From assembly GCF_009914755.1 (NCBI RefSeq), contig NC_060929.1: 64,000 nucleotides of DNA; one strand, 5' to 3'. Positions 28,522 to 64,000 of this stretch are shown here, piece by piece (positions within the stretch are counted from its first letter, which is position 1; the number at the start of each line of letters is the position of its first letter). The notes under the pieces are model-generated. The model saw only the letters and a program-made list of their open reading frames with translations, did not search any database and had not been told where the DNA came from. Made by a program: the position numbers and the translations under genes. The stretch is from the human T2T-CHM13v2.0 reference genome, Homo sapiens.

Positions 28522-30595
28522 ATGGTGCCGCAGCAGGCTGCAGACACAAGGGAAGACTAACTAACCTCCTGAGCTGCCTCTGCCTGTCTAAATGAGCATC
28601 TGAGTCCAGTACCAAGGAGTTGAAGAAGGCTTTTTTGTGGGCAACGTCGTGGAGAACCTAGATGAGAAACCCTGAGCACCGGCTAGAGGTGAGTCCACTA
28701 TTTCTCCAAAGTCAGAAAAGCACACTTCTTCTAAATGCACAAAAGATCTGTTTGTAAATCAATGATTAAAGAAGATATGTAGAGAGATGCCCTAGTTCAC
28801 GTCTGCTGAGAGACCAGGTTGTTGAGAAGGACCCAGTGAAACTTCCTCAGGCTGCAGTAGAAATACTCGCTATATACATAATTATCTGGCTTCCCAGTGG
28901 AAGAAATAATAATGCCCTTTCTGGGGACATTATTTTCACATGCAGAATGTGCATGATTGTTAAGAGACATCAATTATCTACAAAGCTACTTACCCACTTG
29001 TGATATTTTTTCTTCTCAACATGCAGACTAAAGCCAGCCTGAACTGATTTTGAAAAATCTACTAAGCCTCATGTAAGGAATAGAGCATCACTACTGGTGA
29101 TGCTACCAACCTTGAAGAGGTTGGGGAAACAGGAAGATAGCAGTCCACCTTTTAAACATCATTAACAAGAAGTCTGTATGTAAGTGCTGGCATTAGGAGG
29201 AAGCCAAGAACAGTGTAGACAGTGGAGCTCAGAAAGCAGGCCACAGACCCTGATGATAGTTTTGTTGTAGTCTCAGCAATGCACCAAGATGTAACAGTCT
29301 CTCCTTGTCTGAGATAACACCCAGAGTTCTTTGTCCTACCTCCAAGAAGACACAAAGGTGAGGTTGGAGCGAAAGTTTAATAAGCGAAACAAGAAAGTTC
29401 TCTGTCAGCAGAGAGGCGGGCCTAAACAGGGTGCCCCGTGTGAGGCTGGGGTCCAGGGTTTTCAGGGGCTGGGAAGAGGAAGGAATGTGCTTAGTCCCTG
29501 GGCTGTCTGGAGAACATGTGACTCAGCTTGACCTGACATCAACCAGAAAGGTTTGCCCGGGACCTTGGGTTGGGAACAATCAGGGGCTGAAGTGATGATT
29601 CATAGAGCCCAGACTTACAGTCCAAAAAAGAAAGAAAAGTGCCCACCGGAACCCACTAGAGCCCACTGTGCCCCTGCCCACAAAAGGAGAAGAAACTTTT
29701 TCCTGGGAGCCTGCTGACTATACAAAGGACAAAGGCATTTCTATGCCAGGCCTTGTTCCCTTATCTGAGTGGGCCGGAGGTTTATGTACGTTTTTATTTC
29801 TATGCCAGGCCTTGTTCCCTTATCTGAGTGGGCCGGAGGTCTATGCAAGTTTTTATCCAAATGGGCCGGAGGTTTTTCTATCTGTGCAGCTGTGGGCCTG
29901 TCTCCAGGCACAACACCCTGTGCTAGTTCCTTATCAGTGCCTGCAGCTTGAATTTTTTTCCCAGGCTCCTTTTTATGTTATGTGGGGATGAGACACTGAC
30001 CCATGGGCTGGGGGCTCTCCAGGGACCCTTGCCTTGCTCTCTACCTAAGGCAAGCTAACTAACTCCTTTCAGTTTCAACACTGAAATAATTTGCTTTCTA
30101 AAATGAATCTCAGGGAAGACTTCTGGCCTATTTCACATGAATAAATGAATCTCAGAGATGTCTGGCCTATTTCACATGAATCTAGAGAGATCAGAGAGCG
30201 TAGAGAATTATAGACTTTGAAAACAGGGATTTTAAAGTTAAGGAGCTGCTCAAGTTGGAAGTGCAGGCCCTGGACAGAGGGATACTTTCTGGTCTTGAGC
30301 AAAAATCTCCAGTAGTTTCAGTCACACAACAACTTCCTGGAAATAATTATCACCCTCCTTAGAGGTCTGAGCCAGAAGAAAGAGAATCTACATTTCTTCT
30401 GAGTTCAGCAAGAAGATCATGAAGAAAATGAGCAGCTTTGATACTCCATTGCCAGATATGATCCTTCTGAGATATCACATATACTTAACTACTACAGCTT
30501 AGCATCCAGTGAATGCTAGGACACAGAAAGAATTTCTAACTACGATGTCTTTCAGCAATGCAAGATGCAGACCCTTTGGCCTTGACAATAGACCA
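28522..30595 (+). pseudogene. Relic protocadherin variable exon A (EC1-EC4), split by an LTR
   Basis: By-eye peptides EEGFFVGNVVENLD, AVEILAI, DINYLQSY, QPELILK, ATDPDD/SFNTEI (across LTR), IDFEN, LEVQALDRGILSG, NNFLEIIIT, NYYSLASSEC*DTERISNYDV in colinear cadherin order; stops and frameshifts. Confidence 0.85.
29263..30071 (-). mobile_element. ERV1 solo LTR (MER50-like)
   Basis: TG...CA termini, 4-bp TSD GTTT (29259-29262/30072-30075), internal ~45-bp tandem duplication. Confidence 0.8.
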
Positions 30596-37201: not shown

Positions 37202-38730
37202 GTGACTGCTTTTGATCAGAAAACCCTCAGCGATCTGCCCATGCTCCTCACTTTCCTGGGGGGCAAGGAGGGGAGTAGGGCACTGTGGGAATCCTTAGCC
37301 CTGGAGATGTGCTACTGCTTTCCTGCAGAGCTGGAGAAATGCTATCACATGGCAACATCCCCAAGGATCTGGGGTTGCAGCCCTGGGAACTGGTGGAACG
37401 TGGAGTCCTTATCATTTCTGAAGATAGAACACGGCACTATAAAATCAACTTGGAAAATGGATAGTATTTATATACTGCATTGCTAAGAAACTTGATAGAA
37501 AAGAGCTGGGTGGCTCAGCACTATGCTTTCTAAGTTTTGAGATTCTCTTTGAGGACCCACACAGCCTCATGCAGAAGTAGAAATTTGTCGTTTGTACACT
37601 GTTGGTGGGAATGTAAAATAGTTCAACCCCTATGGAAAGCAGTATGGAGATTTCTCAAAGAACTAAAATTGAACACCCATTCAACCCAGCAATCCCACTA
37701 TTAGGTATCTACCCAAAGGAAAAGAAATCATTTTATCAAAAAGACACCTGTGCTGGGGACAGTGACTTACACCTGTAATCCCAGAATTTTGGGAGCCCAA
37801 GCCAGGTAGATCGCTTGAGCCCAGGAGCTCCAGACCAGCCTGGACAACATGGCAAAATGCCATCTCTACAAAAAAATACAAAAAGTAGCCATGCATGATG
37901 GCATGCCCCTGTAGTGGCAGCTACACAGGAGGCGGAGATGGGAGGATTGACTGAGCTGAGTTGGAGGCTGCAGTGAGTTATGATCCAGCCTGGGTGGCAA
38001 AACAAGACCCTGTCTCCAAAAAAAAAACCAGAAAACATCTACACTCATATGTTTATGGAAGCACTATTCACAACAGGAAAGTCACAGAATCAATGTAAGT
38101 GTTCATCAATAGTTGATTGGATAAAGAAAATGTGGTATATGTATACCACGGAATACTATGCAGCCATAAAAAAGAATGAAATTATGTCCCTCACAACATG
38201 GATGGAGCTGGGGGCTGTTATTCTAGGTGAAATATCTTAGAACCAGAAAATCAAATACTGCATGTTCTCACTTATATAAGTGGGAGCTAAACAATGGGTA
38301 CACAAAGACATAAAGATGGGAATAACAGACACTGGGGAATCCAAAAGTGGGGAGGGTGGGAGGGATTGAGGGTTGAAAACCTACCTGTTGGGTACTACAT
38401 TCACTATGTGGGTGACGGGTTCACTAGAAGCCCAAACCTCAGCGTTACACAACATACCCATGTAACACACCTGCACATGTACTCCTTGAATCTAAAATGA
38501 AATTCAATTTAAAAAGAAGTAGAAGTTCGGGATACAAATGACATGTCTAGCTTTCAAAGCAAGATGTTTTTTGGACATTAGTGAGGATACCACTGTCAGG
38601 ACACACTTCTTCCTCCCAGATATTTATAATCCCAGCATTGGAATGAATTCTCTCCAGGCTTACATTCCAAGCCGTCGTCGGCCATGGGTAGTAAAAACAA
38701 AATCTGGGGGGAAGAAAGTATGCTGAAAGC
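37202..38730 (+). pseudogene. Relic gamma-A-type protocadherin exon B (signal, EC1, part of EC2), split by L1
   Basis: ALWESLALEMCYCFPAELEK, GNIPKDLGLQPWELVERGVLIIS, LDRKEL..LCFLSFEILFED, EVEVRDTND, LDISEDTT, IGMNSLQAY versus PCDHGA1 [23 protein letters not shown] and VGMNSLQSY. Confidence 0.92.
37588..38514 (+). mobile_element. L1 (L1MA/L1PB-like) 3' end with nested Alu (~37752-38030)
   Basis: ORF2-end/3'UTR sequence; TSD AGAAGTAGAA 37573-37582/38515-38524. Confidence 0.85.
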
Positions 38731-43982: not shown

Positions 43983-45530
<1,548 letters not shown>

Positions 45531-51605: not shown

Positions 51606-51649
51606 TGCAATGCCAAGTCCCAACCTCTAGGTGCCGCTGCCGGACAACG
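51606..51649 (+). promoter_or_regulatory. CSE/CTCF-like element inside the TAF7 5' leader
   Basis: TGCAAT at 51606, then ACCTCTAGGTGCCGCTGCCGGACAACG; CGCT at 51635 is 29 bp from TGCA versus 28 bp in PCDHGA1. Confidence 0.72.
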
Positions 51650-52445
51650 CGGAGAGAGCTAGCTAGCTAGCTAGGGAACAGGAAAGCAAATGGCGGCTCC
51701 CCCGGAACGGTTTTCGGCCCAGAAAGCCCAGCAGAGATACTTTCAACTCACAAACTCTCCCGGAACAAAGACACTCAAAAAATCAGGGCTCAGCGAGCTC
51801 TCTTCGCCTCGGGTACTTACAATCCAGTGACGATTATAAGTTCAGTTTCACCGGGCCGGAGCGAAGGGAAGAGGAGGCCGCAAGGAGCCAAGCGGGAGAG
51901 AGCCGAGCGTCTCCTTGTCGTTTCCTTAATTCTTCCTGCCGCTTGGCAGAGTGATCCACTACCGATTACTGATGAAAGGGCCCGGGATGGGCAGCGCGAA
52001 ATCTTGCCGAGAGGCGCAGCTCGCATCACCAGACCCCGCACCTCGCCGGCCCTCCGTCCGGGTCGCCTACCCAGCAAAAACGGAAGTGCTACGTCGCGAC
52101 GCGGGGCGGGAGGCGGCTGTGAGTGACAGCCCCTCCGGGCGGAAGGGCGGAGCCCCAGCTAGCGCAGGCGCAATAGCGCAATTACGCTGCCCAGCGTGAA
52201 ACTCATCTTTTCGCGAGAACTTGTTTTTCCGGGATGGAAATGACAGTGTTTCGGAAGAGCTGTTGGTTTCAAACTATTTAGAGCTTGGAAGTTCCAAGAA
52301 AGACACAGATTCGTCCCCCGCTAAGCCAGCACTTTTACGGGATCGCTGTGGGGCCGGATGGCTTCTAGACTTCCGGGTGATTCCGGGAGATGGGGGACGC
52401 CTTGCAGTAAGCGTCTTTGCTTCTGGAAACATCTCGGATGTTCCC
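51630..52445. promoter_or_regulatory. TAF7 CpG-island promoter
   Basis: CpG-dense; ETS CGGAAGTG at 52081, GC boxes ~52103 and ~52145, CGCG-element-like TTTCGCGAGA 52209-52218, YY1-like AAATGGCGGC ~51688. Confidence 0.85.
51890..52290 (+). pseudogene. Relic gamma-B-type exon D (signal plus EC1) underlying the TAF7 promoter CpG island
   Basis: Hydrophobic LLVVSLILPAAW, then with frameshifts IHY(S)ITDERARDGQR(G)NLAE (cf. IRYSIPEELAKGSVVGNLAK), VRV..DA.., RDGNDSV..NYLEL; IHY-to-DxND distance 279 nt versus 282 nt in PCDHGA1; CSE upstream. Confidence 0.6.
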
Positions 52446-56447: not shown

Positions 56448-57147
56448 TTTAAGCTTATTATTTTAAGTCTATATTCCTAACTAAGCACTGTCAAGAGGAT
56501 GAGATTATCATTATTAGATTAAATTTATCAGAACCTACTACAGCTCTGAATAGGTTCTGCTTCCCTAGGTACATTAAGGGCGAACACCTAAACTAAAAGG
56601 AAGTGTTACAAGAGGAAAAAGGGGCATGAGCAACCAATAGTATCCATAAAAGAGCTGCTTATTTTTGTAATTGTGAAAGTATATATCTATTTTTAAAGTA
56701 TGGATAAGCATCGAATGTAAATTCTTTATATCAGTAGTTACATAATGCAATTATTCATAATTTTACATTTTTATCAGTATTTTCTACCTTTTATAGTGAA
56801 ATTTTCTCCTTTAATATATTGAATTTACAGTGAGAATTTTTTATAATTTTTTTACAGTGGATAATTTCTTGAGTAGCCATTTTTACAGAAAATAAGTTTC
56901 AATAGTGTGTCATCTTGAAAAGGAAATGTCAAGAGGGAAAAATTTGTAAGAATTCTTAGTCGAATTTTAATGTATTTTAGGCTGGGTGCGGTGGTTCACA
57001 CCTGTAATCCCAGCACTTTGGGAGGCCAAGGCGGACGGATTACCTGAGATCAGGAGTTCGAGACCATCCTGGCCAGCATGGCGAAACCCCATCTCTATTA
57101 AAAGTACAAAAATTAGTTGAGCATCGTGGTGTGTACATGTAATCCTA

Positions 57148-57279
<132 letters not shown>

Positions 57280-57467
57280 TTAAGAATTTTAATAAAACGT
57301 TAGAACTAAATTTTGTGAAATGATCATTTTGCTAATATTTTATCAAAAACAATGATTTGTACCCTTCTTAGTAAAGCAGCTGGTATTTTAAAATATGTCT
57401 CGAGAAAAAAGCCAATACAGTCTCTTTTGAGGACCTTGAAAACTAACCTGCTAGGGATATCATACTA

Positions 57468-57495
57468 GGCCTCTGGGTGCCGCTGTCCGCCAATC
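57468..57495 (+). promoter_or_regulatory. Orphan CSE/CTCF element of a gamma-B relic exon
   Basis: GGCCTCTGGGTGCCGCTGTCCGCCAATC aligns with the PCDHGA1 CSE; ~300 bp upstream of the relic signal-peptide remnant. Confidence 0.8.
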
Positions 57496-57759
57496 CGTGG
57501 CTGGAGGGAAACAAAGCAATCCACTGACGCAGCAGTCCCCGCAGGCTTTTGAGACACACATTAGGAGAGGACTCTGCCCGCTGTCTGTCTCACAATCTGC
57601 TCGAAATATCTTGGTCAGGAATCTCAGGATGTCTAGTGACCCCGAGTGAGGTGCTGCCGTTTATTCCTGAGCATCTTTGGAAGCAGGAAGCAGGGAGCAA
57701 CGGTAGCGAGAGGTATTCGGATCTGAGTATCAGCAGGAAGAAGAAACAGAGGAAGAAGT

Positions 57760-60130
57760 CCCCCATAAGGAAGGCGTGAGGAGCGCAGGAAGCGCTGTTT
57801 CCCTGCCTGAGATCTTTATTCTACTAGGTCTTTATTCTACGTAGCCGATACGCTGTAAAATTCTGGAAGAGAAGGCTAGGGGTTTAAGGTTGGTAATCTC
57901 TCAGAAGATCTGCGTCTCGGTGACGGAAAGAACTAAGGGTAAGTGCTGAGAAGCCTCTCTTTACAGCCAGAGAACGAGCCAGAGCCGAGCTTGAGAATGA
58001 CGGGATAGATCTAGCAGTTATGCCCAAGGAAGACCCTCGGCCCTTTGAATTTGAAGGCACTGAAAATCGTATAAATGTTTTCATATAAACGTATGCATCT
58101 TTGATATAAATAACAAAATGGCTTTTAGCACAAATTTTGTTTTGGAAATTTTGAAAAACGTCTTAATAAGAGGAATGTTTACTCTTAAGTCTGCAGTAGA
58201 TTTTGAACACCGGCAGTAACTGTACAAATATATCAGATTAGTTTTAATAGCCATCTCCCCTTCCCCTACAAGTAAAGGAGAGTACTACAGCAGTATGTAC
58301 TCTGAATTGCTGCTATTGAAGAACCCCTGAGCCTGTGCAGCGTGGCACTCCTGTGGTCCCCATTACTCAGGAGGCTGAGGCAGGAGGATTGCTTGATGCC
58401 AGCTAGAGGCTGCAGTGCACTATGAGAACACCTGTGAATAGCCACTGCATTCCAGCCTGAGTAACATGGCCAGACCCCATCTCTTAAGAAAAGAAAAGAA
58501 ACCCTGAACCAGAGGAGCAGAGCTGCCACCACTTAGTGGTGGGGATGGGGCAGAACAGCTCAGGGCAAGACACAGGCCTTGGATGCCAATGCCAGCCGTC
58601 AGATATTGAGCAATGTGTAAGTGGGGTTAGCCTGCATGAGAACCTGCTCGCCACCTCCTCCTCTTCATTCTTTAGGTGATCCCCATTGACCTAGACAATA
58701 TCTTTAATATAGAGTTCTCCTGATTTTTCTACACAATTTTACAGGGCATACAGAATATATTTCCTGTCCAATAATGACAGAAATACTTGATTTTGAAGAG
58801 TAACAGTTATAGCTTGGAATAGAAGACTGGAGGCAGTTTGAGGGCCGACTTCAGAGTCCTGGTTGAAATGAAGGTTGAGAAGTATAATGCAGTCAGTGCA
58901 GGTGACTTTCAGCTGGGTATCTAGTCCTATCAGAGGTAAAAACTGTGGTTGCCCTAACCAAAACAATAGGACTAAGAGACCTTAAATGAAAGATGAAAGT
59001 TATTATAGAGAGAAATGATCATACTGGCAAACAATTCACCTCCAAGAATTATGATGTGACTCTTTGTCAGATACTCACAGATGGAATTCTAAACTGGTAG
59101 CAGACCCTGAAGGACAATGTCACCATCAGAACCACCAACAAGGACAAACTGTCCCTCTCCTGCATCACCCTGCATACCATCTGCATCCACAAAAATGCTC
59201 ATTCTTCAACAAGCCTCCTATTTCTTTTGGGTGACTGGGAACACTGCCCAGCACCTCCATCACATGCTTTAGCGCTTCCCACCCTAACTTAGGGTCCCAT
59301 ATGCCTCCTGTTTCTTCTTGACCAGTGACCTGCCACTGTGGGCACTGTCATTCTACATGTCAGTGAGTGCAGAGTGCTATGGTTACCATGCAGACTATCT
59401 TTGAGCTGACTCTGCAGGCCAGTGACCAGGGTTCAACTTGCTCAGTGTCATCCTGAACCTGCATGTGATGGTGGATGACCATTGCAAAAATGCAAGGACA
59501 CTATGCCAGGAGTTGCAGCCAAGTGGGGCCCACTTTGATGCTGCACCACTCACAATGCAACCCAGCTATCCCATCACCAAAGTGGACACCAGCTGGGGCA
59601 TAAAGGCTGACTGTCCTATCATGTGCTTCAGGCCAGCTAATGTGGCTCTTCAAACTAGGGATGTGCACGAGCTAGATGCGTGCCGTGTCACTGTGGGTAA
59701 CAGAGATGCAACCTGCCAAGGTTTGTTGGTCACCGTGGTCAATGGTGAATCATCACGCTGAAACATCACCTGGTTGCTGCTCATAGTTTGCAGGAGTTGC
59801 TACCAGACCTCAGCAATCGCCCAGCACCCAACAGCAGGCAGCAGACAGCACCCAACAGCTGGCGATGGCCGTTGCCTTGATCTCCATGCTGTTTCTCCTC
59901 AGTGTGACTCTGGCCATCTCTCTGAACCTGCAATGCCCCCTATAGCTCCATTGCCTGGGGCTGTTTTCAGCTGGATCTCTGGTCCAAGCCCGGATATGGA
60001 GTTGTCTCCAACTTAAAGAAAGGAAATTTGCCCTGTTCCTACAACGTATGTGTGGTTTTAGATATTTTTAAAATCTTAATTTCTTTAACTCAAGAAACAG
60101 CTTTGAACCAGGTATTCTCTGCAGTGCCAG
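57760..60130 (+). pseudogene. Near-full-length relic gamma-B-type protocadherin exon E
   Basis: ALFPCLRSLFY, PIRCKILEEKARG, VGNLSEDL, LRVSAEK, FHINVCIFDINN, EEQSCHHLV, FELTLQASDQGS, LSYHVLQAS, GNRDATCQGLLVTV, SLQELLPDLSNRP, VALISMLFLLSVTLAISL (TM), AWGCFQ, GNLPCSYNVCV. Confidence 0.93.
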
Positions 60131-61694
60131 CAATGAAGCTTTGTTTTATTTTTGTTTTTGTAGAAACGGGGTTCACTATATTGACCAAGCTGGTCTCAAA
60201 CTCCTGGCCTCAAGTAATCTGCCCACCTTGGCCTCCCAAAGTGCTGGGATTGCAGGCGTGAGCCACTGTGTGTGGGCAGCAATGAAGCTTTAAATGTTGC
60301 ATTTGATTCAAATGTATTTGTGTGATATTTTAACATTTTTATTTTATACTTACCATCCTTTTATAAATCACTCCTGCGTGTTTTTGGTTGCTGAAAGTAG
60401 GGAGCTCTACAGGTTTACTTACTAGTTCTTATGTATATTTTAATTTACCTCATTAGCTCACAATTTCTTTGGGGAAAAGTTTATGCCTATTAATGTGTAT
60501 TCTGAAAAGTTACATTCTCTGTTAAAGAGTTACTTCCTTGCAATATTGAAGATGATTTATTGCACCTTTAAATTTCTACTCTTTGGCTCCATGTACTTGT
60601 CTTTGAGAAGCTGAGAAACTGTAGATTTGGTTAAGAACTAAAGTTCTCTTTCCAAAAACTATTATTGAGACCTTTCATTGTTTTCTTTCTTTCCTCATTT
60701 TTAACTTTTCTCAGTCATGGTGTCCATGGGTTGGCTGGCCGAATTTGTTCCTGAAATTATCAGACTCTGGAGTACAGATAGCATGCTTCTCTAACTTTGG
60801 GGTAAAGATAAGTAAGTCACTCTAAGCCTGAGACATTTTAATTAGTAACCCTTTGCTAATAGTGCAGTGATTAAAAAAAAAAGAAGGCCACATCCTCATC
60901 TTAACTGGTTAAAAAATACTGTTAAGAGAAAACCAACTTCTCTTGGAGAAAATATTAAGTGCGATTATAGAGGAATACATATTATAAGAGCCTATCTAAA
61001 AATAAAGATGAGACCATTTTTCTTTTCAGCTGTGAAGAATAATATCATAGACTTTGTCTCTGAAATTTGAAATCTAAATTATATATTCATGTGACTTTTC
61101 AATGAAATTCCAAGAGCCCAGTTTTATTTTTTTCAAAATATATTGCCTTTGGTGAATCTTAAGAATTTTTTAAAAACCCACATAATGCAAAGACACTTCA
61201 AAAAAAAAAGAGGAAAAATAAGGATAGGGTTAAACCATGCTCTTCAAAATCCCAAGGTTTCTGATAAATATTCAAATCATAATGGGAAGGAAATGGGATG
61301 GTATGATTTTTTTAAAGTCTAGCTTATATTCTAAAAGATTATTTTTCCCTCTAATACTTTTCACCCTCCAGTCAAAGGGGAGCTGCTCTATGTGGCCTGG
61401 GAAATTACCAAGTGGTCAAACTTTACTACAGAAAAAGTGGAGAGATGATTTTGTCCTCATTGTAATGTTAGGTTTTTACTATAATTCCCTGAATAGCAAA
61501 CTTGGAAAGCAGATAACATGGGAATACTTGGATTCTCCTGTATATTTCAATTTGGTGACATTTAGGCACATTTAAAGAAGTGAACATATAGTTTCTCTTT
61601 TTCATACATATATTGTAGAATTATTTCCTTGACAATAGACTAAAACTTAAGAAAATAACAAGTTAATGAGAAGGTTTTCAGTATTTGCTAGGAA

Positions 61695-61737
61695 TGCAGT
61701 AACTGGTTAGGACTGTGGGCGCCGCTGTTCACTAATC
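61695..61737 (+). promoter_or_regulatory. Conserved sequence element (CSE)/forward CTCF site of the PCDHGA1 promoter
   Basis: TGCAGT-N-GACTGTGGGCGCCGCTGTTCACTAATC with CGCT box at 61723, ~267 bp upstream of the ATG. Confidence 0.88.
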
Positions 61738-61989
61738 TGGTAGATACAGGCAGTACACACAGGTCAGGAGGAGGAAAAAAAAAAAAAAAGAAAAAGAAAA
61801 AAGCTCTCGTGCCTCTTAGAACCTCCATAACCGCCAGATTGAAAACTGACTGTCCAAGACTGCCTAAATCCTACTTCTGGATGACTCTCCAGTCAGAATT
61901 CTCCTGAAAATTGGGTTAATTTCAGCTCAGAAAAGCAGAAACGATACCCTTGGTACTGGACTGGAAGAAAACTACGAAGTGAGAGAGCC

Positions 61990-64000
61990 ATGAAGATTCA
62001 GAAAAAGCTGACTGGCTGCAGCAGGCTGATGCTTCTGTGTCTTTCTCTGGAGCTGCTGTTGGAAGCTGGGGCTGGGAATATTCACTACTCAGTGCCGGAA
62101 GAGACAGACAAAGGTTCCTTCGTAGGCAACATCGCCAAGGACCTAGGGCTGCAACCCCAGGAGCTGGCAGATGGCGGAGTCCGCATCGTCTCCAGAGGTA
62201 GGATGCCGCTTTTCGCTCTGAATCCTAGAAGTGGCAGCTTGATCACCGCGCGCAGGATAGACCGGGAGGAGCTCTGCGCTCAGAGCATGCCGTGTCTCGT
62301 GAGTTTTAATATCCTTGTTGAGGATAAAATGAAGCTTTTTCCTGTTGAAGTAGAAATAATTGATATTAATGACAACACTCCCCAATTCCAGTTAGAGGAA
62401 CTGGAGTTTAAAATGAATGAAATAACGACTCCAGGTACCAGAATCTCATTGCCTTTTGGGCAAGACCTTGATGTGGGTATGAACTCACTCCAGAGCTACC
62501 AACTCAGCTCTAACCCTCATTTCTCCCTGGATGTGCAACAGGGAGCCGATGGGCCTCAACATCCAGAGATGGTGCTGCAGAGTCCCTTAGACAGAGAAGA
62601 AGAAGCTGTCCACCACCTCATCCTCACAGCTTCTGATGGGGGTGAACCAGTCCGTTCAGGGACCCTCAGAATTTACATTCAGGTGGTGGATGCAAATGAC
62701 AATCCTCCAGCATTTACTCAGGCACAATACCATATAAATGTCCCCGAAAACGTGCCGCTGGGTACTCAGCTGCTCATGGTAAATGCCACTGACCCTGATG
62801 AGGGAGCCAATGGGGAAGTAACGTACTCCTTTCACAATGTAGACCACAGAGTGGCCCAAATATTTCGTTTAGATTCTTACACAGGAGAAATATCAAATAA
62901 AGAACCACTAGATTTCGAAGAATACAAAATGTATTCAATGGAAGTTCAAGCCCAGGATGGTGCGGGGCTCATGGCTAAAGTTAAGGTACTGATCAAAGTT
63001 TTGGATGTAAATGATAATGCCCCAGAAGTGACCATCACCTCTGTCACCACTGCAGTTCCAGAAAACTTTCCTCCTGGGACCATAATTGCTCTTATCAGTG
63101 TGCATGACCAGGACTCAGGAGACAATGGCTACACCACATGTTTCATTCCTGGAAATTTACCCTTTAAATTGGAAAAGTTAGTTGATAATTATTACCGTTT
63201 AGTGACTGAAAGAACACTGGACAGAGAACTTATCTCTGGGTACAACATCACAATAACAGCAATAGACCAAGGAACTCCAGCTCTATCTACTGAAACTCAC
63301 ATTTCACTACTAGTGACAGATATCAATGACAACTCCCCAGTCTTCCATCAGGACTCCTACTCTGCCTACATTCCCGAAAACAACCCCAGAGGAGCCTCCA
63401 TCTTCTCTGTGAGGGCCCACGACTTGGACAGCAATGAGAATGCACAAATCACTTACTCCCTAATAGAGGACACTATCCAGGGGGCACCCCTATCTGCCTA
63501 CCTCTCCATCAACTCCGACACTGGGGTCCTGTATGCGCTGCGATCCTTCGACTATGAGCAGTTCCGGGACATGCAACTGAAAGTGATGGCGCGGGACAGT
63601 GGGGATCCGCCCCTCAGCAGCAACGTGTCTCTCAGCCTATTCCTGCTGGACCAGAACGACAACGCGCCCGAGATCCTGTACCCCGCCCTCCCCACAGATG
63701 GTTCTACCGGCGTGGAGCTGGCGCCCCTCTCCGCAGAGCCCGGCTACCTGGTGACCAAGGTGGTGGCGGTGGACAGAGACTCGGGCCAGAACGCCTGGCT
63801 GTCCTACCGCCTGCTCAAGGCCAGCGAGCCGGGACTCTTCTCGGTGGGTCTGCACACGGGCGAGGTGCGCACGGCGCGAGCCCTGCTGGACAGAGACGCG
63901 CTCAAGCAGAGTCTCGTGGTGGCCGTCCAGGACCACGGCCAGCCCCCTCTCTCCGCCACTGTCACGCTCACCGTGGCCGTGGCCGACAGGATCTCCGACA
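61990..64000 (+). CDS. PCDHGA1: Protocadherin gamma-A1 variable exon (signal peptide plus EC1-EC6), truncated by window end
   Basis: ATG at 61990: [53 protein letters not shown]...; cadherin DRE/DXNDN motifs; open to 64000, so absent from the ORF track. Confidence 0.96.
63540..64000. promoter_or_regulatory. Intragenic CpG-rich region at the 3' end of the PCDHGA1 exon (EC5-EC6)
   Basis: Abrupt rise in GC3/CpG within the CDS. Confidence 0.75.

What the first reader, a model, noticed from the sequence alone, without database searches (positions are those of the whole stretch)
57468..60130. Nearly complete gamma-B pseudo-exon with intact CSE directly upstream of PCDHGA1
Seen: gamma-B diagnostic peptides from the signal (ALFPCLRSLFY) through LRVSAEK, FELTLQASDQGS, LSYHVLQAS and the TM to GNLPCSYNVCV, riddled with stops and indels. 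Its CSE is as clean as that of PCDHGA1, and CpGs persist at 57480-58050 while the 3' part is CpG-decayed. Inference: the promoter outlived the ORF and may still bind CTCF, take part in gamma promoter choice as a decoy or first boundary, or drive non-coding transcripts spliced to gamma constant exons.
Basis: partly seen in the sequence, partly recalled or inferred. Interest (0 to 1): 0.75.

Follow-up and report, generated by a model that had tools for sequence, protein, structure and literature searches.

The report
Dead protocadherin exon, preserved promoter
Just upstream of the first human gamma-protocadherin gene lies an ancient, thoroughly broken gamma-B exon whose promoter switch is still kept in working-looking order, which suggests that the switch has a use of its own.

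Summary
Window 57306-60325 (+) is a collinear, about 89% complete gamma-B type protocadherin variable pseudo-exon. A DNA profile of the seven intact B exons gives 485 + 131 bits, and the unit sits inside the B clade at 100/100. It is about 55% identical to each B exon. It carries 11 in-phase stops, about 34 frameshifting indels, no start codon and two Alu insertions. It ends at 60325, not 60130.

The promoter module has not decayed with the exon.
- **CSE (57463-57500):** it matches 16 of 16 positions that are strongly conserved in the 21 functional gamma CSEs; PCDHGA1 matches 14. None of 956 equally conserved 16-column stretches of the coding part is kept that well.
- **CpG:** from the CSE to 58090, CpG o/e is 0.62-0.70 with no TG/CA excess, as in live B promoters. 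The exon body is at 0.15-0.18 with strong TG/CA excess.
- **Contrast:** two younger B pseudo-exons in the cluster show the reverse, with the CSE core CpG lost.

So "the promoter outlived the ORF" is supported by sequence. CTCF binding, transcription and a decoy or boundary role are untested here. The relic itself is probably charted in old cluster maps; I found nothing in print on its preserved promoter.

The parts
57306..57462 (+). Promoter homology upstream of the CSE, abutting the poly-A of an upstream Alu
   Evidence: The A-exon DNA profile alignment starts at 57306 and the B profile at 57424; the sequence was read.
57463..57500 (+). Conserved sequence element (CSE), core GTGCCGCTGT at 57477-57486, in the same orientation as all functional gamma CSEs
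   Evidence: PWM from 21 functional gamma CSEs gives 37.4 bits, second best site in the 64-kb window on both strands. It matches 16 of 16 strongly conserved positions. 0 of 956 control windows are as well kept. It lies about 232 nt before the start-codon column; B1-B6 lie 199-263 nt before theirs.
57481..58090 (.). CpG-retaining block (promoter, 5'UTR equivalent, signal peptide and EC1 part)
   Evidence: The block 57481-58090 holds 28 CpG; CG o/e 0.70, TG 0.94, CA 0.84. The 621 nt around the CSE (CSE-50 to CSE+570, 57427-58047) give o/e 0.62 and GC 0.51, against 0.65-0.86 in B1-B7. The block starts at the CSE core CpG.
57629..57748 (.). RefSeq functional element labelled 'enhancer'
   Evidence: Taken from the hub's annotation table given with the finding, not from any call of mine. 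The assay and cell type were not visible to me.
57712..57715 (+). Column of the B-family start codon; no ATG in the relic
   Evidence: Alignment with B1-B7 and B8P.
57771..58333 (+). Decayed signal peptide, EC1 and start of EC2
   Evidence: tblastn of B7 aa 8-117 maps to 57768-58082; B profile alignment; peptide ALFPCLRSLFY followed by a stop.
57936..57944 (+). New consensus-like 5' splice site AGG|GTAAGT (GT at 57939), made by a T-to-A change in the LRVSAEK codons
   Evidence: 8 of 9 consensus positions, the best donor-like site in 57560-60400. GGTAAGT occurs 6 times on the + strand of the 64-kb window. The B exons have GGGTTAGT or similar at this column. Use as a donor is not shown.
58334..58495 (+). 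Alu-like monomer insertion with A-rich tail and target-site duplication
   Evidence: It falls in the gap between the two collinear profile hits, whose profile ends overlap (hmm 1122-1135 matched on both sides); the sequence was read.
58496..60142 (+). Decayed EC2-EC6, transmembrane segment (59859-59933) and variable cytoplasmic part
   Evidence: B profile 485 bits; tblastn of B2 aa 528-780; peptides; CpG o/e 0.15 with TG 1.57 and CA 1.39.
60143..60291 (-). Antisense Alu insertion (coordinates include the second copy of the target-site duplication CAGCAATGAAGCTTT)
   Evidence: Sequence read; tail alignment after leaving the Alu out.
60292..60325 (+). Last part of the pseudo-exon and the ancestral 5' splice-site column (GTGTGA at 60320-60325; B1-B6 have GTGAG(T/C) and B7 GTAAGT there)
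   Evidence: Alignment of exon tails. CAGGTATTC at 60109 aligns with coding CAAGATCT and is not the ancestral donor.

Best explanation
This is the 5'-most unit of the PCDHG cluster: a gamma-B type variable exon that died long ago, at about the time the B subfamily radiated, and has since decayed as neutral, germline-methylated DNA.

Its promoter module did not decay with it. The CSE, which is the CTCF-binding element of protocadherin promoters, has been held under purifying selection. The roughly 600 bp from the CSE across the old transcription start region has stayed free of methylation-driven CpG loss.

The most likely reading is an orphan variable-exon promoter that still behaves like its live neighbours. 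It would be a forward-oriented CTCF/cohesin anchor with promoter or enhancer activity. It could be picked in promoter choice without yielding a protocadherin, and it marks the TAF7-side edge of the gamma array.

Shown: gamma-B identity, the degree of decay, non-neutral preservation of the CSE, and the CpG contrast.

Inferred: germline hypomethylation, CTCF occupancy, and any transcript or looping role.
For: Identity and age.
- B clade 100/100; terminal branch 1.01 changes per site against 0.08-0.25 for the other eight B units.
- 54-56% identity to every B exon.
- 11 stops and about 34 frameshifting indels.

CSE.
- 16 of 16 strongly conserved positions.
- The relic keeps 627 of 971 (0.65) equally conserved coding columns, and 0 of 956 sliding windows of 16 such columns reach 16 of 16; 7 reach 15.
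- Binomial P is 0.001-0.005 at per-site retention of 0.65-0.72.
- In a 246-kb scan, all 25 sites above 18 bits lie on the + strand. The relic, at 37.4 bits, scores like B1, B2 and B7.

CpG.
- 5' 621 nt o/e 0.62 against body 0.18. Functional B exons give 0.65-0.86 and 0.62-0.75.
- Ancestral CpGs kept: 4 of 14 in the 5' part against 2 of 58 in the body, Fisher P 0.011, with 20 TG and 10 CA in the body.
- TG/CA o/e is 0.94/0.84 in the block against 1.57/1.39 in the body.
- The block begins at the CSE core CpG.
- Retention at B-invariant columns (mostly non-CpG) is about the same in both parts: 0.69 in 57771-58333 against 0.61-0.72 in the body. The CpG contrast therefore reflects lower CpG mutability, not general constraint.

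Contrast cases in the same cluster.
- B8P: CSE 13 of 16, core TGCT, 5' o/e 0.49, body 0.60.
- The B pseudo-exon downstream of A12: CSE 14 of 16, core CACT, 5' o/e 0.26, body 0.61.

External.
- The hub's table lists a RefSeq 'enhancer' at 57629-57748.
- CSEs bind CTCF, and their methylation blocks promoter use (review PMC8787164, passages seen).
Against: - No occupancy, methylation or transcript data could be consulted, and no other vertebrate genome was available, so cross-species conservation of the CSE is untested.
- The cruder CSE test, on the 12 columns invariant in B1-B7, is only marginal: 11 of 12 kept, and 68 of 1114 windows do as well.
- The CpG block only just meets the classical CpG-island thresholds (GC 0.51, o/e 0.62; thresholds recalled).
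- Only 4 of 14 ancestral CpGs are kept in the block; most of its CpGs lie at non-ancestral or unalignable positions.
- The ancestral splice donor is degraded to GTGTGA and separated from the exon by an Alu.
- RefSeq annotates no gene or transcript here (hub table).
- A strong constitutive CTCF stop at this place would be expected to hinder the beta cluster's contacts with its control region beyond the gamma cluster (passages).
Confidence: 0.6

Rival explanations
1. A purely neutral relic. The clean CSE and the CpG-rich 5' end are chance or a regional mutational effect, and nothing there works today.
For: The B-only test is marginal: 68 of 1114 windows do as well. The block barely passes CpG-island thresholds. 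There is no annotated transcript (hub table). Non-CpG substitution in the block is as high as in the body.
Against: 0 of 956 control windows reach 16 of 16. The CSE core CpG survives where 56 of 58 ancestral body CpGs were lost. The block lacks the TG/CA excess that methylated decay leaves. Two younger pseudo-exons lost their CSE core CpG and their 5' CpGs faster than their bodies did. A RefSeq functional element overlaps the block (hub table).
Confidence: 0.13
2. An exapted regulatory element unrelated to protocadherin promoter choice. The old promoter now serves as a distal enhancer or CpG-island-like element, for example for TAF7 about 5.3 kb away or for an unannotated RNA, and the CSE is kept for that use.
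For: The RefSeq label at 57629-57748 is 'enhancer' (hub table). TAF7 is constitutively unmethylated and active inside the cluster (PMC2776977, passages seen). A second CSE-like site lies inside TAF7's 5'UTR at 51631 (22.9 bits, 13 of 16).
Against: The preserved element is exactly the protocadherin CSE, in the family's orientation and spacing, and the CpG layout copies that of live gamma promoters. Nothing ties it to TAF7.
Confidence: 0.17
3. Short-tract gene conversion from a live paralogue recently refreshed the CSE, and perhaps the 5' end, so their good state reflects youth and not function.
For: The core with its CCAAT box differs at only 2-3 positions from the CSEs of C3 and B6. That gene conversion occurs among protocadherin variable exons is established knowledge that I recall; I did not check it here.
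Against: No donor stands out. The 5' block is 39-58% identical to every B unit, no better than the body at 53-62%. The 5' profile hit has a lower score density than the 3' one (131 bits over 910 nt against 485 over 1630). A tract limited to about 25 nt cannot be excluded.
Confidence: 0.07

Closest known systems
PCDHGB8P and the gamma-B pseudo-exon downstream of PCDHGA12 (same cluster; L011:3814-6658 and L012:7339 to L013:38)
   Same: They are B-type variable pseudo-exons on the same strand within the PCDHG array, each with a recognisable CSE-like site.
   Different: They are far younger: 2082 and 1401 profile bits against 616, and B8P has a branch of 0.25 against 1.01. They show the opposite decay pattern. 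The CSE core CpG is lost (TGCT, CACT), 5' CpG o/e is 0.49 and 0.26, and the bodies are still at 0.60-0.61. The name PCDHGB8P for the unit between A11 and A12 is recalled. Whether the other unit or the present relic carries an HGNC name could not be checked; a search for 'PCDHGB9P' found 0 papers.
Live gamma-B variable-exon promoters (PCDHGB1-B7) with CSE/CTCF-dependent stochastic choice
   Same: They share the CSE sequence, its orientation, its distance to the start-codon column, and the CpG layout around the CSE.
   Different: There is no open reading frame, no start codon, two Alu insertions and a degraded exon-end donor. CTCF binding and promoter activity are not shown.
Transcribed protocadherin pseudogenes PCDHB18P and PCDHB19P (hub table)
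   Same: They are dead variable exons of the 5q31 cluster whose promoters are evidently still used.
   Different: They are beta-type single-exon genes that RefSeq annotates as transcribed. The relic is gamma-type, much more decayed and unannotated. Beta CSEs have a different form and my gamma PWM does not detect them, so no direct comparison was made.
[quoted passage not shown]
   Same: A review figure legend states that such sequences are present in all three clusters (PMC7766791, Figure 2 legend, seen). PMC8787164, Figure 6 legend, mentions intervening pseudogenes after Wu and Maniatis 1999.
   Different: The legends give no positions, and the primary papers were not held. I cannot show that this particular relic is among them. 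I found no statement on its CSE or CpG state.

Membership tests
Clustered protocadherin gamma-B variable exon | Collinear homology from signal peptide through EC1-EC6, transmembrane segment and variable cytoplasmic part | tested here: met
   The B DNA profile aligns hmm 213-2881 to 57424-60125 in order. 717 of 806 B2 codons are alignable. The tail runs to 60325.
Clustered protocadherin gamma-B variable exon | Groups with the B subfamily and not with A or C | tested here: met
   B clade including the relic at 100/100. 7 of 7 B, 1 of 12 A and 0 of 3 C proteins hit.
Clustered protocadherin gamma-B variable exon | Lies in the PCDHG array, on the same strand, upstream of the constant exons | tested here: met
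   + strand, 1.4 kb upstream of the PCDHGA1 CSE at 61719; cluster layout and the hub table.
Clustered protocadherin gamma-B variable exon | Intact open reading frame with a start codon (needed for a functional member) | tested here: not met
   11 in-phase stops, about 34 frameshifting indels and no ATG at the start column. It is therefore a pseudo-exon.
Clustered protocadherin gamma-B variable exon | 5' splice site at the exon end for joining to the constant exons | tested here: inconclusive
   The ancestral column reads GTGTGA (GT and +5 G kept) behind TTT and lies beyond an Alu insertion. Strength was not scored with a trained model.
Protocadherin CSE promoter / CTCF site | CSE with CGCT core matching the family consensus | tested here: met
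   16 of 16 strongly conserved positions; 37.4 bits, within the functional range of 11.5-54.9.
Protocadherin CSE promoter / CTCF site | Position about 200-270 nt before the start codon, in sense orientation | tested here: met
   The CGCT at 57483 lies about 230 nt before the start-codon column at about 57712; B1-B6 lie 199-263 nt before theirs. All 25 sites above 18 bits are on the + strand.
Protocadherin CSE promoter / CTCF site | CTCF and cohesin occupancy, looping to downstream enhancers | not testable with these tools
   No ChIP or 3C data were accessible, and no paper found addresses this site.
Protocadherin CSE promoter / CTCF site | CSE CpG unmethylated when active | not testable with these tools
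   Indirect evidence only: the core CpG is kept while 56 of 58 ancestral body CpGs are lost, and the block shows no TG/CA excess.
CpG island (classical thresholds, recalled: at least 200 bp, GC at least 0.50, o/e at least 0.60) | Length, GC content and CpG o/e | tested here: met
   621 nt, GC 0.51, o/e 0.62. This is marginal; the stricter thresholds (GC 0.55, o/e 0.65, recalled) are not met.
Transcribed pseudogene | A transcript starting at its promoter | not testable with these tools
   No expression data. The RefSeq table has no transcript here (hub table).

The most novel reading that the evidence does not exclude
The relic is a living 23rd 'variable promoter' of PCDHG that encodes nothing. 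It would be a selected, germline-unmethylated CTCF/cohesin anchor and transcription start. Its short non-coding first exon would use the newly made consensus donor at 57939 and splice to the gamma constant exons. A neuron that picks it would make no gamma isoform from that chromosome, a built-in null choice or decoy. The site would also set the TAF7-side edge of the gamma looping domain.
Probability: 0.15. Interest if true: 0.7.

Novelty: new member of a known kind. Interest (0 to 1): 0.5.

Why it matters
Protocadherin promoter choice gives neurons their surface identity, and the CSE/CTCF site is its key switch. A CSE that has been preserved long after its exon died would show that the switch has a value apart from the protein it normally drives. 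That value could be as a loop anchor, a domain edge next to the housekeeping gene TAF7, or a silent option in the choice.

It also offers a natural test object. It is a gamma promoter that can be deleted or inverted without touching any coding exon, so looping effects can be separated from isoform loss. If it proves inert, it is simply one more charted relic.

Tried and rejected
- **Sequence searches that gave little.**
  - tblastn with PCDHGA1 alone gave only a 28-bit hit.
  - Pfam on 17 open fragments gave one weak Cadherin_C_2 hit (E 0.0048) and nothing else meaningful. The decay is too deep for protein profiles.
  - A DNA search of the whole assembly with 59300-60060 found only the region itself.
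- **Recent gene conversion of the 5' end.** Rejected, because no paralogue is closer there than elsewhere.
- **CAGGTATTC at 60109 as the exon's donor.** Rejected, because it aligns with coding sequence of the B exons.
- **Beta-cluster pseudogenes as a comparison.** Abandoned. The gamma CSE matrix finds no site in L021, and the beta CSE has another form.
- **CTCF consensus.** I tried to place the CSE on the CTCF consensus from memory, could not settle register or strand, and make no claim beyond 'same orientation as the functional CSEs'.
- **Literature.**
  - Nine full-text searches were run. None found a paper on this relic's name, CTCF binding or transcription. The terms were PCDHGB9P; protocadherin/pseudogene/gamma cluster/TAF7; PCDHGB8P; relic/variable exon; relics; CTCF/pseudogene/conserved sequence element; TAF7/PCDHGA1/CTCF; Pcdh/CBS/CTCF/gamma/pseudogene; and 'upstream of PCDHGA1' and similar phrases.
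  - These papers were not held: Wu et al. 2001, Wu 2005, Yin et al. 2017 and Guo et al. 2015. I did not look up Wu and Maniatis 1999. Their figures and supplements may well show this relic or a CTCF peak on it.
  - The HUSH preprint's single 'PCDHGA1 promoter' passage says nothing on the relic.
Full report
**What is there**

The window is human chr5 (T2T) between TAF7 and PCDHGA1. I read 57000-62100 and listed the open frames.

To get comparison sequences I fetched the rest of the PCDHG cluster from the same assembly. I found the 22 long variable-exon frames, A1-A12, B1-B7 and C3-C5. Their order fits the hub's gene table where the two overlap; the remaining names are assigned from the recalled order of the cluster.

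**Identity**

tblastn of the 22 exon proteins against 57000-60500 gave hits for 7 of 7 B exons (124-164 summed bits), 1 of 12 A exons (28.5 bits) and 0 of 3 C exons.

A DNA profile built from B1-B7, with 500 nt upstream and 150 nt downstream of each frame, aligns collinearly in two pieces. Profile positions 213-1135 map to 57424-58333 (131 bits, E 2.7e-42). Positions 1122-2881 map to 58496-60125 (485 bits, E 5.5e-149). A profile of A1-A12 reaches only 26 bits.

In a maximum-likelihood tree of 24 units, the relic falls inside the B clade (100/100). It is unresolved within that clade. Its terminal branch is 1.01 changes per site, against 0.08-0.25 for the other eight B units. treekit flags the long branch and the odd base composition.

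**Extent and damage**

- 717 of 806 B2 codons can be aligned.
- There are 11 stops in the B2 phase.
- 25 of 33 deletions and 9 of 12 insertions are not multiples of three. A control, B1 against B2, shows one spurious 'frameshift', so these counts are approximate.
- The start-codon column holds no ATG.
- The gap 58334-58495 is an Alu-like monomer with an A-rich tail and a duplicated target.
- A second, antisense Alu at 60143-60291 is flanked by the duplicated CAGCAATGAAGCTTT.
- Behind it the exon tail continues to 60319, and the column of the family's splice donor reads GTGTGA at 60320-60325.

Nucleotide identity to each B exon is 54-56%, against 67-72% between most B exons and 65-68% for B8P. 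At 1125 columns invariant in B1-B7 the relic keeps 732 (0.65) and B8P keeps 996 (0.89).

The equal distance to all B exons, together with the very long branch, means the exon died early, about when the B subfamily radiated. If the B genes are orthologous between human and mouse, as I recall from Wu et al. 2001 (not seen here), this puts the death before the primate-rodent split. That date is an inference.

**The CSE**

I located the CSE of 21 functional gamma units; C5 has none. From these I built a 46-column matrix.

- The relic's site, anchored at 57477, scores 37.4 bits and ranks 13 of 23. The functional sites range from 11.5 to 54.9 bits when each is left out of its own matrix, and A1 scores 45.2.
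- In the 64-kb window, on both strands, only A1's own CSE scores higher.
- Across 246 kb, all 25 sites above 18 bits are on the + strand. They are the 21 functional CSEs, the relic, B8P, a third B pseudo-exon downstream of A12, and a site in TAF7's 5'UTR.
- At the 16 positions where at least 17 of the 21 functional CSEs agree, the relic matches 16. A1 matches 14, and 10 of the 21 functional CSEs match all 16.

As a null, I took the 971 coding columns where at least 18 of 22 functional exons agree. The relic keeps 627 of them (0.65). Of 956 sliding windows of 16 such columns, none is kept 16 of 16 and 7 are kept 15 of 16.

A weaker version of the test, using only the 12 columns invariant in B1-B7, gives 11 of 12, and 68 of 1114 windows do as well.

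The CSE is the one element one would pick in advance.

**The CpG contrast**

| Measure | 5' part | Exon body |
|---|---|---|
| Relic CpG o/e (CSE-50 to CSE+570 vs rest) | 0.62 (25 CpG, GC 0.51) | 0.18 |
| Functional B exons, o/e | 0.65-0.86 | 0.62-0.75 |
| Ancestral CpGs kept by the relic (of 72 present in at least 5 of 7 B exons) | 4 of 14 | 2 of 58 (20 TG, 10 CA in their place) |
| CG / TG / CA o/e (57481-58090 vs 58496-60142) | 0.70 / 0.94 / 0.84 | 0.15 / 1.57 / 1.39 |

- Fisher's exact test on the ancestral CpGs gives P 0.011.
- The block begins with the CSE's own core CpG at 57481. Only two CpGs lie in the 190 nt before it.
- Counted in 300-nt bins around the CSE, the relic has 4|13|13 CpGs. 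B1 has 2|12|16, B2 2|11|16 and A1 0|6|15.
- Retention of invariant, mostly non-CpG, columns is no better in the block (0.69) than in the body (0.61-0.72). The block as a whole is therefore not constrained; it has only been spared CpG deamination.
- The simplest cause is long-standing absence of germline methylation. This is an inference.
- No paralogue is unusually close to the block (39-58% identity against 53-62% in the body), which speaks against a recent large gene conversion.

**Contrast cases**

Two other B-type pseudo-exons lie in the cluster.
- One sits between A11 and A12, at extended coordinates 157814-160658 (2082 profile bits). I take it to be PCDHGB8P; that name is recalled.
- The other sits downstream of A12, at 171339-174038 (1203 + 198 bits).

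Both are much younger than the relic, yet both have mutated the CSE. B8P matches 13 of 16 positions and its core reads TGCT. The second matches 14 of 16 and its core reads CACT. Their 5' ends have lost CpG faster than their bodies: o/e 0.49 against 0.60, and 0.26 against 0.61. The relic shows the reverse pattern.

**Mechanism**

CSEs are the CTCF-binding elements of protocadherin promoters. They must escape methylation for a promoter to be chosen and looped to its enhancer (review PMC8787164, passages seen).

The sequence evidence fits an orphan promoter that has kept this property. It is a forward-oriented CSE at the TAF7-side end of the gamma array with an unmethylated promoter-proximal region. 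The hub's table places a RefSeq 'enhancer' at 57629-57748 inside that region; I could not see which assay it rests on.

A single T-to-A change in the old LRVSAEK codons has made AGG|GTAAGT, with the GT at 57939. This is the best donor-like site in 57560-60400. GGTAAGT occurs 6 times on the + strand of the window. It lies about 360 nt beyond the inferred start site, which I placed at CSE + 100 by analogy with the PCDHGA1 exon start in the hub table. Whether any transcript uses it is unknown.

Against a strong, constitutive boundary role: the beta cluster is controlled from beyond the gamma cluster (passages). Cohesin-mediated contacts must therefore pass this point.

**What is known**

Review figure legends say that relic or pseudogene variable sequences occur in all three clusters (PMC7766791; PMC8787164). 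The relic's existence is therefore probably charted. RefSeq has no row for it (hub table). The primary papers were not held.

Nine full-text searches found nothing on its CSE, CTCF binding, methylation or transcription. Supplements and figures of the CTCF mapping papers, which I could not see, may show a peak here.

**Verdict**

The unit is an old gamma-B pseudo-exon, a known kind. Its promoter module, unlike those of the two younger pseudo-exons, is preserved beyond neutral expectation. Function today is likely but unproven.

Noticed in passing
window 37213-37461, 38480-38717, 45092-45238 (+); weaker 28615-28711 and 30159-30545: More protocadherin relic fragments, gamma-A-like, lie between SLC25A2 and TAF7. 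The A DNA profile gives 83.9 bits (E 6e-27) at 37213-37435. In tblastn, 12 of 23 exon proteins hit 37351-37461 (up to 57% identity) and 7 hit 45092-45238. No CSE-like site above 14.2 bits lies near them.
   Followed up: partly
window 51631 (+), inside TAF7's 5'UTR (TAF7 is on the - strand) and inside the RefSeq 'enhancer' 51616-51815: A CSE-like site, CCTCTAGGTGCCGCTGCCGGACAA, with an intact CGCT core. It scores 22.9 bits, matches 13 of 16 conserved positions, and has the same orientation as the gamma CSEs. No protocadherin coding homology was found downstream of it.
   Followed up: partly
L012:7339-10000 and L013:1-38 (extended window 171339-174038), downstream of PCDHGA12: A third gamma-B type pseudo-exon (B profile 1203 + 198 bits). 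Its CSE scores 33.6 bits but the core CpG has mutated (CCACTG). 5' CpG o/e is 0.26 and body 0.61.
   Followed up: partly
L010:3205 (extended window 147205), PCDHGA10 variable exon: In this assembly the PCDHGA10 frame has an in-frame TAG just after the transmembrane segment (…WHKSRLL*), where A8 has Q. Homology to A8 continues in the same frame beyond it (A8 aa 1-791 aligned). It is possibly a nonsense allele of this haplotype.
   Followed up: partly
window 57936-57944 (+): A single T-to-A change turned the B-family codons GGGTTAGT into AGG|GTAAGT, a near-perfect 5' splice-site consensus, inside the CpG-retaining block.
   Followed up: partly
L021:5636 and upstream of the PCDHB15 start (L021:5885): The beta-type CSE (…GCATGGTGGCGCTGCAGGC…) differs so much in its flanks from the gamma CSE that a matrix built from gamma CSEs gives no site above 12 bits in 10 kb of the beta cluster.
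   Followed up: no
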